64,000 nucleotides of DNA from Escherichia coli 042 (GTDB lineage: Bacteria; Pseudomonadota; Gammaproteobacteria; Enterobacterales; Enterobacteriaceae). The position numbers were made by a program. The stretch lies in assembly GCF_000027125.1 (NCBI RefSeq), contig NC_017626.1; one strand, 5' to 3'. Positions 38,544 through 44,500 of this stretch are shown in pieces. Each line of letters begins with the position of its first letter. The first letter of the stretch is position 1.

Positions 38544-41500
38544 TTAAATGTCGAGATAACGATCACAAAAACGACAATTCGAAAATTAATCAGAATGACA
38601 GGCAAAAAAACGGCCTCCCGATAGGGAAGCCGTAGCAAAGTGCGCGTGTTTTTATGCCGGATGCGACGTAAACGCCTTTTCCGTCATAAGTGGTAGTGCT
38701 GTTCGTATGAGGCGTATCAGGCGATAGTAATTTTGCTATCGAGATAAACGTCCTGCACGGCGTTAATCAGTTTCACGCCGTCAGCCATCGATTTCTTGAA
38801 CGCCTTACGTCCAAGAATCAGCCCCATTCCGCCAGCGCGTTTGTTGATGACCGCAGTACGCACTGCATCGCTGAGGTCAGTTTCACCGCCTGCAGCACCG
38901 CCGGAGTTTATCAACCCTGCCCGGCCCATATAGCAGTTAGCTAACTGATAACGCACCAGATCAATCGGGTTTTCGCTGGTCAACTTGCTGTACACACGAT
39001 CGTCGGTATAACCGTAATTAATCGCTTTATAGCCGCCGTTATTTTCCGCCATTTTTTGTTTGACGATATCCGCACCTATAGTCGCCGCCAGATGGTTTGC
39101 CTGACCGGTCAGGTCGGCGGAAACATGGTAATCAACGCCATCTTTCTTAAAGGCGGAGTTACGCAAATAGGCCCACAGCACTGTCACCATACCCAGCTCG
39201 TGCGCACGTTCAAAAGCCGCAGAAATTTCTTCAATCTGGCGACGTGACTCTTCCGAGCCAAAATAGATAGTCGCACCAACCGCAACCGCGCCCATGTTGA
39301 ACGCCTGCTCCACGCTGGCATACAGCGTTTGATCGTAGCTATTCGGGTAACTTAGCGTCTCGTTGTGATTAAGTTTGACGAGGAATGGAATGCGATGCGC
39401 GTAACGCCGCGATACCGACGCCAGCACGCCGTAAGTTGACGCCACACAGTTACAGCCCGCTTCGATCGCCAGTTCAACAATGTTTTTCGGGTCAAAGTAG
39501 AGCGGGTTAGCGGCAAATGAAGCTCCGGCAGAGTGCTCAACGCCCTGGTCAACCGGCAGAATAGAAAGATATCCTGTGCCAGCCAGACGCCCGGTGTTGT
39601 ACAACGTCTGCATATTACGTAACACCGCTGGCGGGCGATTATTGTCAATCATCACGCGGTCTACGTAGTCATGTCCGGGGAGATAAAGCTGGTCAGAAGG
39701 AATAGTCATACAACGGTGCTGTAAAAGGTTGTCGGCGTCTTTGCCAAGCAACTGCGCAATATCTGTCATTACTATGCTCCCGTAAATTCCGATTGGATAT
39801 CGGCTATGGATTGTCCTGGCCCGCCTTTTGCGGGCAATCATAATCCTGGTCGTTACGGGCGAGTTTTTCCATCTTTTGGATGTTTTTTCAGCGTTTTCTG
39901 TTGGCTCGATTCATCAGAAAAAATGTTAGCGCGGTCAAGTTTTCACCGCAAAGGTATTTAAAAGGTATTATTAAGTGGTATTGTCATCGCGTACCTTACA
40001 TTACCTGTCATGAAGGAATTAAAAGATGAAAACAACAGCAAAGCTGTCGTTCATGATGTTTGTTGAATGGTTTATCTGGGGCGCGTGGTTTGTGCCATTG
40101 TGGTTGTGGTTAAGTAAAAGCGGTTTTAGTGCCGGAGAAATTGGCTGGTCGTATGCCTGTACCGCCATTGCGGCGATCCTGTCGCCGATTCTGGTTGGCT
40201 CCATCACTGATCGCTTTTTCTCGGCGCAGAAAGTGCTGGCGGTATTGATGTTCGCTGGTGCGGCGCTGATGTATTTCGCTGCGCAACAGACCACTTTTGC
40301 CGGGTTCTTCCCGTTACTGCTGGCCTACTCGCTAACCTATATGCCGACCATTGCGCTGACTAACAGTATCGCTTTTGCCAACGTGCCGGATGTGGAGCGT
40401 GATTTCCCACGCATTCGTGTGATGGGCACTATCGGCTGGATTGCCTCTGGTCTGGCATGTGGATTTTTGCCGCAAATGCTGGGTTATGCCGATATCTCTC
40501 CGACTAACATCCCGCTGCTGATTACTGCCGGAAGTTCTGCTCTGCTCGGTGTGTTTGCGTTTTTCCTGCCCGACACGCCGCCAAAAAGCACCGGCAAAAT
40601 GGACATTAAAGTCATGCTCGGCCTGGATGCGCTGATCCTGCTGCGCGATAAAAACTTCCTCGTCTTTTTCTTCTGTTCATTCCTGTTTGCGATGCCACTG
40701 GCGTTCTATTACATCTTTGCCAACGGTTATCTGACCGAAGTCGGTATGAAAAACGCCACTGGCTGGATGACGCTCGGCCAGTTCTCTGAAATCTTCTTTA
40801 TGCTGGCATTGCCGTTTTTCACCAAACGCTTTGGTATCAAAAAGGTATTATTACTTGGTCTGGTCACCGCTGCGATCCGCTATGGCTTCTTTATTTACGG
40901 TAGTGCGGATGAATATTTCACCTACGCGTTACTGTTCCTCGGTATTTTGCTTCACGGCGTAAGTTACGATTTTTACTACGTTACCGCTTACATCTATGTC
41001 GATAAAAAAGCCCCCGTGCATATGCGTACCGCCGCGCAGGGGCTGATCACGCTCTGCTGCCAGGGCTTCGGCAGTTTGCTCGGCTATCGTCTTGGCGGTG
41101 TGATGATGGAAAAGATGTTCGCTTATCAGGAACCGGTAAACGGACTGACTTTCAACTGGTCCGGGATGTGGACTTTTGGCGCGGTGATGATTGCCATTAT
41201 CGCCGTGCTGTTCATGATTTTTTTCCGCGAATCCGACAACGAAATTACGGCTATCAAGGTCGATGATCGCGATATTGCGTTGACACAAGGGGAAGTTAAA
41301 TGAAAACAGAACGTATTCTCGGTGCTCTTTATGGGCAGGCGTTAGGGGATGCGATGGGGATGCCCTCCGAGCTTTGGCCACGCAGCCGCGTTAAAGCACA
41401 CTTTGGCTGGATTGATCGTTTTCTGCCTGGACCAAAGGAGAATAACGCAGCCTGTTATTTTAACCGCGCCGAATTCACCGACGATACCTCGATGGCGCTG

Positions 41501-44500
41501 TGTCTGGCGGATGCGTTACTGGAACGTGAAGGCAAGATCGATCCAGATCTGATTGGGCGTAATATTCTCGACTGGGCGCTGCGTTTCGACGCCTTTAACA
41601 AAAACGTACTAGGTCCGACCTCGAAGATTGCGCTTAACGCCATTCGCGACGGTAAACCCGTTGCTGAACTGGAAAATAACGGCGTGACCAACGGCGCAGC
41701 GATGCGCGTCTCGCCATTAGGTTGTTTGCTTCCAGCGCGTGATGTTGATTCCTTTATTGATGATGTGGCGCTGGCCTCCAGCCCGACACATAAATCCGAT
41801 CTGGCGGTTGCGGGGGCGGTAGTCATCGCATGGGCGATTTCTCGTGCCATTGACGGAGAAAGCTGGTCAGCAATTGTTGATTCACTGCCTTCAATTGCGC
41901 GACATGCTCAACAAAAACGCATCACTACCTTCAGCGCCTCACTGGCAGCACGTCTGGAGATTGCGCTGAAAATTGTGCGCAATGCCGACGGCATCGAATC
42001 CGCCAGCGAACAGCTTTACCAGGTCGTTGGCGCAGGTACCAGCACTATTGAGTCCGTTCCGTGCGCCATTGCGCTGGTTGAACTGGCACAAACCGACCCG
42101 AACCGTTGCGCCGTCCTGTGCGCTAACCTTGGCGGCGACACAGACACCATCGGTGCTATGGCGACGGCAATTTGCGGCGCATTGCATGGCGTTAACGCAA
42201 TCGATCCTGCGTTAAAGACGGAACTGGATGCGGTAAATCAGCTTGATTTCAACCGCTATGCCACGGCGCTGGCGAAGTATCGCCAACAACGGGAGGCGAT
42301 ATGAGCGGCGCTCGATTACACACGCTGCTGCCTGAATTAGCCACGCGTCAGCCGGTGATGGTCGTCGGCGCGGCGGTCATTGATGTGATCGCCGACGCTT
42401 ATGCCCTCCCCTGGCGTGGGTGCGATATCGAACTGAAACAGCAGAGCGTTAACGTTGGCGGCTGCGCACTGAATATTGCCGTGGCGTTAAAGCGTCTCGG
42501 CATCGAAGCGGGTAATGCCTTGCCGCTCGGTCAGGGCGTGTGGGCGGAGATTATTCGCAACCGGATGGCGAAAGAGGGGTTAATCAGCCTGATCGATAAC
42601 GCCGAAGGCGATAACGGCTGGTGTCTGGCGCTGGTTGAGCCGGATGGCGAACGCACTTTTATGTCATTCAGCGGTGTGGAAAATCAATGGAATCGCCAAT
42701 GGTTGGCACGATTAACCGTTGCGCCTGGCAGCCTGCTCTATTTTTCCGGTTATCAACTGGCCTCGCCCTGCGGCGAATTGTTAGTGGAATGGCTGGAAGA
42801 GCTGCAAGACGTGACGCCGTTTATCGATTTTGGCCCACGTATTGGCGATATCCCGGACGCATTACTGGCGCGGATCATGGCCTGTCGACCTTTAGTGTCA
42901 CTCAATCGTCAGGAGGCTGAGATTGCCGCCGAACGTTTTGCTTTATCCGCAGAGATAACAACACTTGGCAAGCAATGGCAGGAGAAATTTGCCGCGCCGT
43001 TGATCGTTCGTCTCGATAAAGAAGGCGCATGGTATTTCAGCAACGACGCTTCTGGCTGCATTCCGGCATATCCAACGCAAGTTGTAGACACCATTGGGGC
43101 GGGCGACAGTCATGCAGGTGGCGTACTTGCCGGGCTGGCCTCTGGTCTGCCACTGGCGGATGCTGTATTACTGGGCAATGCAGTGGCGTCGTGGGTTGTC
43201 GGGCATCGGGGCGGTGATTGTGCGCCAACGCGCGAGGAACTACTCCTCGCACACAAAAACGTATAGATCGCTGCGACAGTGGCTGATGCTGTACTCAATA
43301 GGCCGTTGCTGTTGGTCAAGCGCCACTTGCTTGATCACCAGCACCGGTATTTTGCTATCTAACTGAATATGTGACTGAAACTCGGCATCCGGCATCCGGG
43401 CACTAACGCGGGAACGCGTACGTTGTGGGTAAATGTGCTGGCTGCGGAAGTAGTCATAAAGAGAAATCCCGATGGCATCAACATCATGAATTAAATGTGC
43501 CGGAACCCACGATTCCTCAATCGATACCGCTTCTTCATCGACATAGCGAATACGCTTAAGCAAAAAGACATCACTTCCCGCTTCGACCGCCAGCTGCTGC
43601 GCGACTTCTTCGGGACATTTCACGACACGCTTGTTAACCCATAGTGTATCGGGCTTTTTCCCGCGCAATACCACCTGCTGAGAAAAACCTCGCGCTTCTT
43701 TCAACGAGTATTCGAAGATGTTGTTGATCTGCGTGCCGTAACCACGCGAACGCGTCACCACGCCCTCTTCTTCCAGCGCCTGCATCGCCTTGCGCACCGT
43801 AATGCGCGAAACGCCGGTTAACTGACTTAAATCACGCTCACCGGGCAAAATATTGCCATGCTCCAGCACCCCGCTGCGCACGGCATTTTTTACCGTTTCG
43901 GCAAACTTAATATAAAGCGGCGTGTTATCCGCCGCTAAAATACGTTCGTTCAGTTGGGCAATCAGCTGGGTATGCGCTTGTTCCATTTGTCTTTTTCCTG
44001 CCAGGGAGTCTGGTGGGAGTATATCACTGCTTCTTATTTAAGGCGTTTCTTTAATCCCATCAACGAATGCCTGCAACTCCTCCACCGTGCCATTAAACAC
44101 ATTAAAATCCACCGGACCATTAATGCCATCTACCTGTCCACGGTCGGAATGCTGCCAGAAGCGCCAGGCTATTCCGTCATTGTCCGGACGACGTTGATAA
44201 TAGTGAGCCACCCACCACGGATATTCATTAAAATAGCCCGCCAGATTCGAGTGATAAAAAACGGCTCCTGAGTAAATAATCGGCTTTTTTCCCGTGCGTT
44301 TTTCGACCATTTTTAGCCACTGACTTACCCGCTTGCGTAATTCTTTTGCCGATAATTTTCCCCGTTCTTCTACGTCCAGCACGGCAGGGAGATCGCCGTG
44401 GGCAAAATCCACCGTTTGCAGAAATAATCGCGCCTGAACTGAAGCGGATACCGACGGGGAAAAATAATGATACGCCCCGCGCAGCAGGCCATTTTCGCGG

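What the first reader, a model, noticed from the sequence alone, without database searches (positions are those of the whole stretch)
40026..43986. yegTUV/yegW: transporter + ADP-ribosylglycohydrolase-fold enzyme + PfkB kinase under a divergent-family GntR regulator, a likely catabolic route for an unidentified nucleoside or ribosylated compound
Three translationally coupled genes (4-nt overlaps at 41300-41303 and 42301-42304) encode an MFS nucleoside-type transporter, an ADP-ribosylglycohydrolase-family hydrolase and a ribokinase-family kinase. A convergent GntR/HutC regulator (yegW) overlaps the yegV 3' end by 27 bp. The substrate is not established; the combination suggests uptake, N-glycosidic cleavage and sugar phosphorylation of a modified nucleoside or ribosyl conjugate.
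Basis: inference. Interest (0 to 1): 0.4.

Follow-up and report, generated by a model that had tools for sequence, protein, structure and literature searches.

The report
Orphan riboside salvage operon yegTUV-ggaR
This core E. coli operon, kept off by the repressor gene next to it, most likely imports an unusual ribose-linked compound, phosphorylates it and then splits it into ribose-5-phosphate and a free base; the genes and repressor are already published, but the substrate is still unknown.

Summary
yegT (nucleoside:H+ symporter family), yegU (ADP-ribosylglycohydrolase, or ARH, fold) and yegV (PfkB kinase) are joined by two ATGA overlaps. yegW converges on yegV with a 27-bp overlap. The locus is present in 5419 of 5426 complete E. 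coli genomes.

It is not new. YegW was published in 2024 as GgaR, a single-target repressor of yegTUV that is released in vitro by ADP-glucose. A YegT crystal structure appeared in 2025. The enzymes are still uncharacterised.

- The YegU–YegV pair is conserved across phyla (63 of 79 loci) and occurs fused in both domain orders.
- The transporter is swapped among NHS, PnuC, NCS1, ECF and ABC types, and once for a PTS with no kinase nearby.
- YegV keeps the ribose-diol and 5-OH catalytic residues but lacks the ribokinase residues that bind free ribose.
- YegU keeps the ARH metal and catalytic residues but not the ARH3 adenine-binding residues.
- YegT keeps the NupG ribose contacts but has a different, invariant base pocket.

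Best reading: a non-canonical riboside is imported, YegV phosphorylates its 5'-OH, and YegU then cleaves it to ribose-5-phosphate plus aglycone, as in PsuK/PsuG or FrlD/FrlB. A GGTATT-repeat operator is proposed. Interest is moderate.

The parts
39942..39971 (+). sigma-70-like promoter candidate for yegTUV: TTCACC, 18-nt spacer, TATTAT
   Evidence: Consensus scan, 9 of 12 matches. It lies within the published GgaR-bound fbaB/yegT spacer probe (PMC10819704). The transcription start site was not determined here.
39950..39995 (+). Proposed GgaR operator: three direct GGTATT half-sites (39953-39958, 39964-39969, 39977-39982) plus an inverted GTACC (39991-39995), overlapping the -10-like hexamer
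   Evidence: Direct repeats. Phylogenetic footprint conserved from Escherichia to Vibrio. The GGTA-N11-TACC match is one of 7 in the window, against 1.6 expected. The published EMSA and ChIP data place GgaR binding within the 190 bp upstream of yegT. The paper defines no motif. Assigning GgaR to this sequence is an inference.
40026..41303 (+). yegT, an NHS-family MFS H+ symporter for an unidentified riboside
   Evidence: Pfam and NCBIfam matches. Ribose contacts R131, T135 and E255 and the proton site D315 are kept. The base pocket is changed to W138, A226, Y229, H310 and Y314, and these residues are invariant in 23 orthologues. Crystal structure and negative ITC results in PMC11979927.
40830..40868 (+). 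Operator-like copy inside yegT, 29 of 39 bases identical to the promoter operator; probably the published weaker second GgaR site
   Evidence: It is the only other match of at least 24 of 39 in the 64-kb window on either strand; shuffled sequences reach at most 21-24. It falls inside published probe 5, ORF positions +571 to +869. There is no excess synonymous-site conservation: 0.59 against a gene mean of 0.57.
41300..42304 (+). yegU, an ARH-fold metal-dependent glycohydrolase, proposed to act as a 5-phosphoribosyl-X hydrolase
   Evidence: Pfam match. AF2 model with pLDDT 97.6. Foldseek finds MJ1187, DraG and ARH3 with TM-scores of 0.7-0.9. E24, T60-D61-D62-T63 and G278-G-D-T-D-T283 align to the ARH3 catalytic Glu41 and metal ligands, while the adenine-binding residues F143, S148 and Y149 are not conserved.
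42301..43266 (+). yegV, a PfkB kinase, proposed to phosphorylate the riboside 5'-OH
   Evidence: Pfam match. No NCBIfam equivalog reaches its cut-off; ribokinase scores 81.8 bits against 299.65. The residues equivalent to D16, G41, G42, N46 and D255 are invariant in 58 family members. K43 is Cys in 46 of 58, N14 is hydrophobic, and E143 is variable.
43240..43986 (-). yegW (ggaR), a HutC-subfamily GntR repressor of yegTUV
   Evidence: GntR plus UTRA domains. The MG1655 RefSeq product name is GgaR. ChIP-chip, EMSA, Northern blot and about 30-fold derepression by RT-qPCR in PMC10819704.
43240..43266 (.). 27-bp convergent coding overlap of yegV and yegW; a possible site of transcriptional interference (excludon)
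   Evidence: Sequence. The overlap is exactly 27 bp in 19 of 26 four-gene loci. The yegV-yegW pair is listed among RNA-seq-supported overlapping pairs in PMC12288877. No terminator-like site lies between the genes.

Best explanation
yegTUV is a normally silent uptake-and-cleavage operon for a non-canonical ribofuranoside.

Shown in the literature: GgaR (YegW) represses a single 3.3-kb yegTUV mRNA by binding the fbaB/yegT spacer.

Inferred here, step by step:
1. GgaR recognises tandem GGTATT half-sites that cover the -10 region.
2. An inducer releases it. By analogy with other HutC regulators this is probably a phosphorylated pathway intermediate or an ADP-sugar-like molecule. ADP-glucose works in vitro.
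3. The three proteins are made by coupled translation through the ATGA overlaps.
4. YegT imports the riboside with a proton. It holds the ribose as NupG does and the aglycone in a different, aromatic/His pocket.
5. YegV phosphorylates the 5'-OH of the intact riboside.
6. YegU uses the ARH two-metal site to hydrolyse the C1' bond of the resulting 5'-phosphoribosyl compound, giving ribose-5-phosphate and the free aglycone.
7. Read-through from the induced operon into the overlapping 3' end of yegW may lower GgaR and reinforce induction.

The logic matches PsuK/PsuG and FrlD/FrlB: kinase first, then cleavage of the phosphorylated conjugate.
For: Regulation: the literature shows a single ChIP target, EMSA binding, a 3.3-kb transcript seen only in the ggaR mutant, and about 30-fold derepression.

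Functional coupling of YegU and YegV:
- 9 of the 10 long YegU homologues tested are ARH+PfkB fusions, in both domain orders.
- Their kinase halves match YegV with E-values down to 5e-37.
- A YegV homologue lies on the same strand within 3.5 kb in 63 of 79 loci from Gammaproteobacteria, Firmicutes, Actinobacteria, Chloroflexi and Burkholderiaceae.
- Five further contexts show the same pairing.

Evidence for a riboside substrate:
- The transporter is swapped between NHS (25 loci), PnuC (15, passing TIGR01528) and NCS1 (20). ECF, Bmp-type and CUT1 ABC versions also occur.
- YegT keeps the NupG ribose contacts but not the base contacts, and does not bind U, A, C or G.

Evidence that the kinase acts first:
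- YegV retains the diol-binding Asp, N46 and the catalytic Asp. It lacks K43, which is essential in human ribokinase and contacts the ring O and 5-OH. It also lacks a conserved E143, which contacts the C1-OH. E. coli PsuK shows the same pattern.
- PnuC transporters are facilitators driven by a trapping kinase (established knowledge for PnuC/NadR).
- One homologue sits directly behind a beta-glucoside-type PTS with no kinase nearby, so phosphorylation there necessarily precedes hydrolysis.

Evidence that the substrate is not an ADP-ribosyl conjugate: the catalytic and metal residues are conserved but the ARH3 adenine-binding residues are not.
Against: - No enzymology exists for YegU or YegV, so every catalytic step is inferred.
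- The only experimental links are to ADP-glucose and glycogen: the effector EMSA and the glycogen-deficient yegV deletion mutant on ADP-glucose medium. The riboside model explains these only as analogue or indirect effects.
- Characterised ARH enzymes cleave alpha-linked ribose, whereas common nucleosides are beta.
- 16 of 79 loci lack a nearby PfkB gene.
- E143 is retained as Glu in 15 of 58 YegV relatives.
- Bacteroidetes ribose-utilisation loci pair ARH genes with true ribokinases, a precedent for cleavage first.
- The intragenic operator copy shows no DNA-level constraint.
Confidence: 0.55

Rival explanations
1. YegT imports a riboside. YegU hydrolyses it directly to free ribose plus aglycone. 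YegV then acts as a ribokinase on the released ribose.
For: Nucleoside hydrolase plus ribokinase is a common design. Bacteroidetes ribose-utilisation loci combine ARH genes with ribokinases and are induced by ribose. The best NCBIfam match of YegV and its relatives is ribokinase, although far below the cut-off. E143 is Glu in 15 of 58 family members.
Against: YegV lacks K43 (Cys in 46 of 58) and N14. K54A, the equivalent change in human ribokinase, is inactive. E. coli already has RbsK. PnuC-linked loci need a kinase that acts on the transported molecule. The PTS-linked homologue must receive an already phosphorylated substrate. Every characterised ARH substrate carries a phosphate on the 5-position of the cleaved ribose (established knowledge).
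Confidence: 0.2
2. The published reading. yegTUV acts on ADP-glucose (uptake or production) and promotes glycogen accumulation. ADP-glucose is the physiological inducer sensed by GgaR.
For: ADP-glucose at 10-100 uM releases GgaR from DNA in EMSA, whereas ADP and glucose do not. The ggaR deletion mutant accumulates about twice as much glycogen. The yegV deletion mutant is glycogen-deficient on ADP-glucose medium. yegTUV mRNA rises about 3-fold in 1% versus 0.25% glucose.
Against: - No enzymatic step is proposed. A PfkB kinase and an ARH hydrolase have no obvious role in making ADP-glucose.
- The same U-V module in other phyla uses PnuC, NCS1 or ECF transporters, which are suited to small neutral or cationic vitamins and ribosides, not to a 589-Da dianion.
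- Induction by glucose is 3-fold against 30-fold for full derepression, and wild type shows no transcript in LB.
- ADP-ribose, NMN and other nucleotides were not tested as effectors.
- The ggaR mutant grows poorly in M9 glucose. Slow growth with excess carbon raises glycogen by itself, so the phenotype may be indirect (inference).
Confidence: 0.1
3. YegU is a DraG/ARH-type hydrolase that reverses protein ADP-ribosylation, and its gene neighbours are incidental.
For: ARH fold, conserved metal ligands and a conserved equivalent of the catalytic Glu.
Against: Tight and ancient linkage and fusion with a sugar kinase and small-molecule transporters. The adenine-binding residues are missing. The DraG and Tri1 equivalogs score 80 and 69 bits against cut-offs of 337 and 490. 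No ADP-ribosyltransferase gene is nearby.
Confidence: 0.03

Closest known systems
psuKGT (yeiC/yeiN/yeiM) pseudouridine catabolism of E. coli
   Same: A dedicated nucleoside transporter, a PfkB kinase that phosphorylates the intact riboside at 5', and a metal-dependent glycosidase that releases ribose-5-phosphate plus base. Like YegV, PsuK has non-ribokinase residues at positions K43 and E143.
   Different: PsuG has the IndA fold, not the ARH fold. The transporter belongs to a different family. The substrate is known and has a C-glycosidic bond. No HutC repressor is encoded in the psu region shown.
frlABCDR fructoselysine operon of E. coli (from established knowledge)
   Same: A transporter, a PfkB kinase (FrlD) that acts on the intact glycoconjugate, an enzyme that cleaves the phosphorylated conjugate (FrlB), and a HutC-type GntR repressor (FrlR).
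   Different: The sugar is a hexose-derived Amadori product, not a riboside. The cleaving enzyme has a SIS fold. It was not compared by sequence here, apart from the weak FrlD match of YegV.
ARH3 / DraG / ARH1 ADP-ribosyl hydrolases and MJ1187 (PDB 1t5j)
   Same: Same fold (TM-score 0.7-0.9). Same two-metal ligand motifs (TDDT, GGDTDT) and catalytic Glu position. ARH3 can cleave an N-glycosidic nicotinamide-ribose bond in alpha-NAD+.
   Different: The adenine-binding residues are absent. YegU is encoded with, or fused to, a kinase and with transporters. The DraG and Tri1 equivalog scores lie far below their cut-offs. The substrate is probably a small phosphoriboside rather than a modified protein.
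PnuC-NadR nicotinamide riboside uptake (from established knowledge)
   Same: Riboside uptake is coupled to a cytoplasmic kinase. PnuC-family transporters replace YegT in 15 Firmicutes loci.
   Different: NadR has a P-loop kinase, not a PfkB kinase. The product NMN is kept for NAD synthesis rather than cleaved.
Bacteroidetes ribose utilisation systems (Rus)
   Same: They combine ribokinases with variable ribose-liberating enzymes, including ARH-family genes.
   Different: They are built on SusC/D outer-membrane uptake, are induced by free ribose, and their kinases are true ribokinases. The ARH members are uncharacterised.

Membership tests
ADP-ribosylglycohydrolase (ARH/DraG) family, PF03747 | Sequence match above the Pfam gathering score | tested here: met
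   225 bits against 26.2, E 1.9e-66
ADP-ribosylglycohydrolase (ARH/DraG) family, PF03747 | All-helical ARH fold | tested here: met
   AF2 model with pLDDT 97.6. Foldseek finds 1t5j, 2woc and 6d36 with TM-scores of 0.70-0.90
ADP-ribosylglycohydrolase (ARH/DraG) family, PF03747 | Two-metal ligand motifs and catalytic Glu (ARH3 E41, D77/D78, D314/D316/T317) | tested here: met
   E24, T60-D61-D62-T63 and G278-G-D280-T-D282-T283 align to these positions. D61 and D282 are invariant in 40 homologues
ADP-ribosylglycohydrolase (ARH/DraG) family, PF03747 | Adenosine-binding residues for an ADP-ribosyl substrate (ARH3 F143, S148, Y149) | tested here: not met
   The aligned positions are N126, a deletion, and V129, and they vary within the family. 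The roles of these residues come from PMC8319183. The alignment is sequence-based and runs through a loop, so it carries some uncertainty
ADP-ribosylglycohydrolase (ARH/DraG) family, PF03747 | Hydrolysis of an ADP-ribosyl-X bond | not testable with these tools
   Needs an enzyme assay
Ribokinase (RbsK equivalog TIGR02152) | Score above the curated equivalog cut-off | tested here: not met
   81.8 bits against 299.65
Ribokinase (RbsK equivalog TIGR02152) | Catalytic Asp (D255), 2,3-diol-binding Asp (D16), N46 and the GG motif | tested here: met
   Invariant in 58 YegV-family sequences
Ribokinase (RbsK equivalog TIGR02152) | Free-ribose contacts K43 (ring O and 5-OH) and E143 (C1-OH) | tested here: not met
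   K43 is Cys in 46 of 58. E143 is A, E, S or C. N14 is hydrophobic. The roles of these residues come from human ribokinase, PMC12621476
Nucleoside:H+ symporter (NHS) family | Family-model score above cut-off, the TM10 GxxxD proton site, and the ribose contacts (NupG R136, T140, E264) | tested here: met
   TIGR00889 scores 654 bits against 446. R131, T135, E255, G311 and D315 are conserved in 23 orthologues
Nucleoside:H+ symporter (NHS) family | Base-pocket residues of NupG/XapB (F143, Q225, N228, Y318, F322) and binding of canonical nucleosides | tested here: not met
   Replaced by W138, A226, Y229, H310 and Y314, all invariant. No ITC signal with U, A, C or G (PMC11979927)
GntR family, HutC subfamily | N-terminal GntR winged helix plus C-terminal UTRA effector domain | tested here: met
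   GntR at 3.1e-16 and UTRA at 2.3e-36
GntR family, HutC subfamily | Represses the adjacent catabolic operon and is released by a small ligand | not testable with these tools
   Shown experimentally in PMC10819704. Only ADP-glucose, ADP and glucose were tested as ligands
Kinase-then-glycosidase riboside pathways (PsuK/PsuG type) | A PfkB riboside kinase genetically coupled to the bond-cleaving enzyme | tested here: met
   63 of 79 loci, plus fusions in both domain orders
Kinase-then-glycosidase riboside pathways (PsuK/PsuG type) | Glycosidase of the PsuG (IndA-like) fold | tested here: not met
   YegU has the ARH fold

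The most novel reading that the evidence does not exclude
The YegV/YegU pair may be a pyridine-riboside kinase plus an NMN-type (or NaMN-type) nucleosidase. The route would be nicotinamide or nicotinic-acid riboside (or an oxidised or otherwise modified pyridine riboside), then its 5'-phosphate, then pyridine base plus ribose-5-phosphate. This would give a gene to the NMN glycohydrolase activity (EC 3.2.2.14) described in E. coli and Salmonella extracts in the 1970s-80s. To my knowledge that activity was never assigned to a gene (own knowledge, not verified here).

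Hints in favour:
- PnuC-family transporters, which pass the 'nicotinamide riboside transporter' model, follow U-V in 15 loci.
- A Leuconostoc operon reads NrtR-like, MFS, NadC, U, NCS1, V.
- In a Blautia locus a homologue lies downstream of nadA-nadB-nadC-niaR.
- An isochorismatase-family Cys hydrolase, the family that includes nicotinamidase, sits between NCS1 and U in one locus.
- ARH3 cleaves the nicotinamide-ribose bond of alpha-NAD+.
- YegT has an invariant aromatic/His pocket.
- The GgaR effector ADP-glucose is a close analogue of ADP-ribose, the NrtR effector.

Caveat: proximity to NAD genes in 2-3 of about 60 loci is close to what chance would give.
Probability: 0.12. Interest if true: 0.7.

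Novelty: new variant of a known kind. Interest (0 to 1): 0.42.

Why it matters
yegTUV is one of the few core E. coli operons (about 99.9% of complete genomes) whose chemistry is still unknown, and the YegU–YegV pair recurs across bacterial phyla and as fused proteins. If the kinase-first model is right, it would define a new activity for the ADP-ribosylglycohydrolase fold: hydrolysis of small 5-phosphoribosyl compounds rather than removal of protein ADP-ribosylation. It would also add a third E. coli pathway of the PsuK/PsuG and FrlD/FrlB kind.

The model questions the published naming of the regulator as a glycogen repressor that senses ADP-glucose, and it gives concrete, inexpensive tests. 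It would not change any general principle. The locus, its regulator and the transporter structure are already published, so this is an incremental finding that generates hypotheses.

Tried and rejected
- A single-sequence AlphaFold run of YegU was unusable (pLDDT 42). It was repeated with a 40-sequence alignment.
- The first homologue search returned only close Enterobacteriaceae relatives. The 50%-clustered library was needed to reach diverse relatives.
- Literature searches for any characterised YegU- or YegV-type enzyme found nothing. Terms included ARH+PfkB, ARH+PnuC, ARH+ribokinase/riboside, NMN nucleosidase, and ARH+ribose-5-phosphate.
- An Rfam scan of 39600-44300 at E<=1 found no riboswitch or sRNA.
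- No convincing intrinsic terminator lies between yegV and yegW. Overall the terminator scan found no more sites than shuffled sequence gives.
- The intragenic operator copy was tested for purifying selection at synonymous sites and showed none. Its biological importance is therefore doubtful even though it matches the published second binding region.
- I looked for a recurrent gene that would degrade the aglycone beside U-V. None recurs. Esterases appear in 4-5 loci, and an amidohydrolase, a GMP-reductase-like gene and an isochorismatase-family gene appear once each.
- The adjacency of thiMD in E. coli was considered as a thiamine clue and rejected. It is local synteny among close relatives only.
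- The NAD link was considered as the main explanation and demoted to the novel case, because proximity in 2-3 loci is about the chance expectation.

Full report
**Observation.**
- yegT, 40026-41303 (+)
- yegU, 41300-42304 (+)
- yegV, 42301-43266 (+)
- yegW, 43240-43986 (-)

Both plus-strand junctions read ATGA and have a Shine-Dalgarno sequence 5-13 nt upstream. yegV and yegW overlap tail-to-tail by 27 bp.

Pfam and NCBIfam assign the proteins as follows:
- YegT belongs to the nucleoside:H+ symporter family: 611 bits in Pfam, and TIGR00889 at 654 bits against a cut-off of 446.
- YegU belongs to the ADP-ribosylglycohydrolase (ARH) family, at 225 bits.
- YegV is a PfkB kinase, at 190 bits.
- YegW has GntR plus UTRA domains, the HutC subfamily.

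The window is E. coli. The 4.2-kb locus is at least 80% covered in 5419 of 5426 complete genomes. In MG1655 it corresponds to b2098-b2101, between fbaB and yegX-thiDM.

**What is already published.** YegW was characterised in 2024 and renamed GgaR (PMC10819704).
- ChIP-chip gave a single genomic peak at fbaB/yegT, with a weaker site inside yegT.
- EMSA localised binding to the 190 bp upstream of yegT and to ORF positions +571 to +869.
- A single 3.3-kb yegTUV transcript appears only in the ggaR deletion mutant, with about 30-fold derepression.
- ADP-glucose at 10-100 uM releases GgaR from DNA in vitro. ADP and glucose do not.
- The mutant accumulates about twice as much glycogen and grows poorly in M9 glucose.
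- The paper states that the functions of the three structural genes remain unknown.

A genome-wide screen had earlier listed the yegV deletion mutant as glycogen-deficient on ADP-glucose medium (PMC6195507). A 3.1-Å YegT structure was published in 2025, and no binding of uridine, adenosine, cytidine or guanosine was detected by ITC (PMC11979927). yegV-yegW is listed among convergent pairs with overlapping transcription (PMC12288877). MG1655 RefSeq already carries the GgaR product name.

The effector assay has been done only narrowly, with ADP-glucose, ADP and glucose. The substrate question is still open. Seven literature searches found no enzymology for YegU or YegV, and neither protein has a solved structure.

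**Operator.** The spacer contains three direct GGTATT half-sites (39953, 39964, 39977) and an inverted GTACC (39991-39995). These overlap a -10-like TATTAT at 39966-39971. In an alignment of 26 yegT upstream regions this block is by far the most conserved element, and it is recognisable in Vibrio.

The only other place in the 64-kb window that matches the 39-bp operator at 24 or more positions is 40830-40868, inside yegT, with 29 of 39 identical. Shuffled sequences reach at most 21-24. This site lies inside the published second binding fragment. However, its synonymous sites are no more conserved than the gene average, 0.59 against 0.57, so it may be of little consequence. The paper defines no motif. 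Assigning GgaR to these repeats is my inference.

**The YegU–YegV pair is an ancient functional unit.** A search of 1.84 billion representative proteins found 236 relatives of YegU with E below 1e-30. Thirteen of the top 150 are at least 560 aa long. Of the ten tested, nine are ARH+PfkB fusions, in both domain orders, and their kinase halves match YegV.

A scan of species-representative genomes gave 79 loci. Counts:

| Feature near the YegU homologue | Loci (of 79) |
|---|---|
| YegV homologue, same strand, within 3.5 kb | 63 |
| HutC-type GntR gene nearby | 48 |
| NHS transporter (Enterobacterales, Vibrio, Gilliamella) | 25 |
| PnuC-family transporter, directly after U-V (Clostridia/Lachnospiraceae) | 15 |
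| NCS1 permease, usually between U and V | 20 |

The 63 loci with a YegV homologue include Firmicutes, Actinobacteria, Chloroflexi and Burkholderiaceae. The PnuC-family proteins match PF04973 at 1e-42 and pass TIGR01528 at 139 bits against a cut-off of 42. The NCS1 loci come from Bacilli, Lactobacillales, Dialister, Aeromonas and Chloroflexi. ECF, Bmp-type ABC and CUT1 ABC versions were also seen. Apart from the regulator, no other gene recurs next to the pair.

A conserved enzyme pair with interchangeable transporters of nucleoside or vitamin type points to a small, widespread riboside-like nutrient. It argues against a bulky dianion such as ADP-glucose.

**What each protein can and cannot be.**

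*YegT.* It keeps the NupG residues that hold the ribose (R131, T135, E255), plus Q252 and the proton site G311/D315. The base-contacting positions are replaced by W138, A226, Y229, H310 and Y314, and these are invariant in 23 orthologues. The roles of the NupG residues come from PMC8042404.

*YegU.* With a 40-sequence alignment it models at pLDDT 97.6 and superposes on MJ1187, DraG and ARH3. E24, T60-D61-D62-T63 and G278-GDTDT align with the ARH3 catalytic Glu41 and metal ligands. The ARH3 adenine-binding residues F143, S148 and Y149 align to N126, a gap and V129, and these positions vary across the family. YegU therefore looks like an active ARH-type glycohydrolase that does not bind the adenosine of ADP-ribose in the way ARH3 does. 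ADP-ribose released from an ADP-ribosyl substrate would also offer no free 5-OH to a PfkB kinase.

*YegV.* No curated kinase model reaches its cut-off. In 58 family members aligned with E. coli RbsK and PsuK:
- The diol-binding Asp (D16), G41, G42, N46 and the catalytic Asp (D255) are invariant.
- K43 is Cys in 46 of 58; PsuK has Val at this position.
- N14 is hydrophobic.
- E143 is variable; PsuK has Ser at this position.

In human ribokinase the K43 equivalent bridges the ring oxygen and the 5-OH and is essential. The E143 equivalent binds the anomeric OH (PMC12621476). YegV therefore looks like a kinase for a C1-substituted ribofuranoside rather than for free ribose.

**Order of steps.** Four lines favour kinase first:
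1. The YegV active-site pattern just described.
2. PnuC-type proteins are facilitators that depend on a trapping kinase acting on the transported molecule. This is established for PnuC/NadR, and it applies to the 15 loci where PnuC follows U-V.
3. One YegU homologue lies directly downstream of a beta-glucoside-type PTS IIABC (TIGR01995, 644 bits) with no PfkB gene nearby. There the substrate must arrive already phosphorylated.
4. All characterised ARH substrates carry a phosphate on the 5-position of the cleaved ribose. Both E. coli precedents for PfkB kinases acting on glycoconjugates (PsuK/PsuG; FrlD/FrlB, from established knowledge) phosphorylate first.

I put the kinase-first order at about two to one.

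**The ADP-glucose reading.** It rests on one EMSA with three compounds, a two-fold glycogen change and a screen hit. It proposes no chemistry for a kinase or a glycohydrolase. Glucose induces 3-fold against 30-fold for full derepression. Forced expression of the operon slows growth, which could raise glycogen indirectly (inference). ADP-glucose may act as an analogue of the true ligand. ADP-ribose and nucleoside monophosphates were not tested.

**A more adventurous reading.** Several weak hints point to pyridine ribosides:
- the PnuC-family transporters
- a Leuconostoc operon reading NrtR-like, MFS, NadC, U, NCS1, V
- a Blautia homologue downstream of nadABC-niaR
- an isochorismatase-family hydrolase between NCS1 and U in one locus
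- ARH3 activity on alpha-NAD+
- the aromatic/His pocket of YegT

NAD genes near 2-3 of about 60 independent loci is roughly what chance would give. I keep this as the novel case, at about 12% probability.

**Convergent overlap.** The yegV/yegW overlap is exactly 27 bp in 19 of 26 four-gene loci, from Escherichia to Pectobacterium and Cedecea. No terminator-like element lies between the genes. Together with the excludon listing, this suggests that read-through from the induced operon could reduce GgaR expression. This is inference only.

**Verdict.** The locus is already known. The proposed chemistry, an ARH-fold phosphoriboside hydrolase coupled to a riboside kinase, would be a new variant of a known pathway design. 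Interest is moderate.

Noticed in passing
window 39922-39939: A conserved block, AATGTTAGCGCGGTCAAG (TGTTA-N6-TCAAG, resembling weak CRP half-sites), lies just upstream of the operator. It is conserved across Enterobacteriaceae yegT upstream regions.
   Followed up: no
window 40026-40080 and 41256-41300: The first ~15 and last ~14 codons of yegT have synonymous-codon identity of 0.80-0.85, against a gene mean of 0.57. This probably reflects constraints on translation initiation and on coupling to yegU.
   Followed up: partly
window 38717-39841 (-): The longest fbaB ORF is 374 aa, but MG1655 annotates 350 aa. The real start is then at about 39769 and the fbaB/yegT spacer is about 256 bp.
   Followed up: partly
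window 43986-44038: yegX (a GH25 glycoside hydrolase, 44038-44865, minus strand) ends 51 bp upstream of the yegW start on the same strand. yegW may therefore be co-transcribed with yegX. yegX-yegW adjacency is kept in 16 Enterobacteriaceae loci.
   Followed up: no
L088:4093-7005: A beta-glucoside-type PTS IIABC (TIGR01995, 644 bits) lies immediately upstream of a YegU homologue that is 35% identical. No PfkB kinase is present, and a PRD-type regulator is nearby. This suggests that some ARH-family members hydrolyse PTS-phosphorylated glycosides.
   Followed up: partly
L050:5160-11258: Leuconostoc holzapfelii has a single-strand cluster: NrtR-like regulator (NUDIX plus NrtR_WHD), MFS, NadC (TIGR00078, 277 bits), YegU-like, NCS1, YegV-like.
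   Followed up: partly
L070:2722-8990: In a Blautia MAG the order is nadA, nadB, nadC, niaR (HTH_11 plus 3H), cytidylate-kinase-like, GNAT, then a distant YegU homologue at 34% identity.
   Followed up: partly
L089:3903-8085: The order is NCS1 permease, isochorismatase-family Cys hydrolase (191 aa; only weak similarity to PncA, YcaC and BiuH), YegU homologue, then a PfkB fragment with a GntR gene nearby.
   Followed up: partly
L017:10047-11324, L018:9893-11239: Vibrio loci carry an extra MFS transporter that passes the L-lactate transporter equivalog (NF049980, 430 bits against 320). It lies between yegV and the regulator, which in Vibrio is on the same strand as the operon.
   Followed up: no
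L091:2795-7023: A Paenibacillus-sized genome has a CUT1 ABC transporter, a 712-aa ARH-domain protein, a PfkB kinase and a second ARH gene in a row. P0162 is a 692-aa protein with two ARH_GH stretches.
   Followed up: no
L038, L043, L055 (cluster c43) and L032:8445-9413: Alpha/beta-hydrolase or esterase genes (Hydrolase_4, BD-FAE) directly follow the U-V-transporter block in four or five Firmicutes loci. This may hint at an acylated form of the substrate.
   Followed up: no
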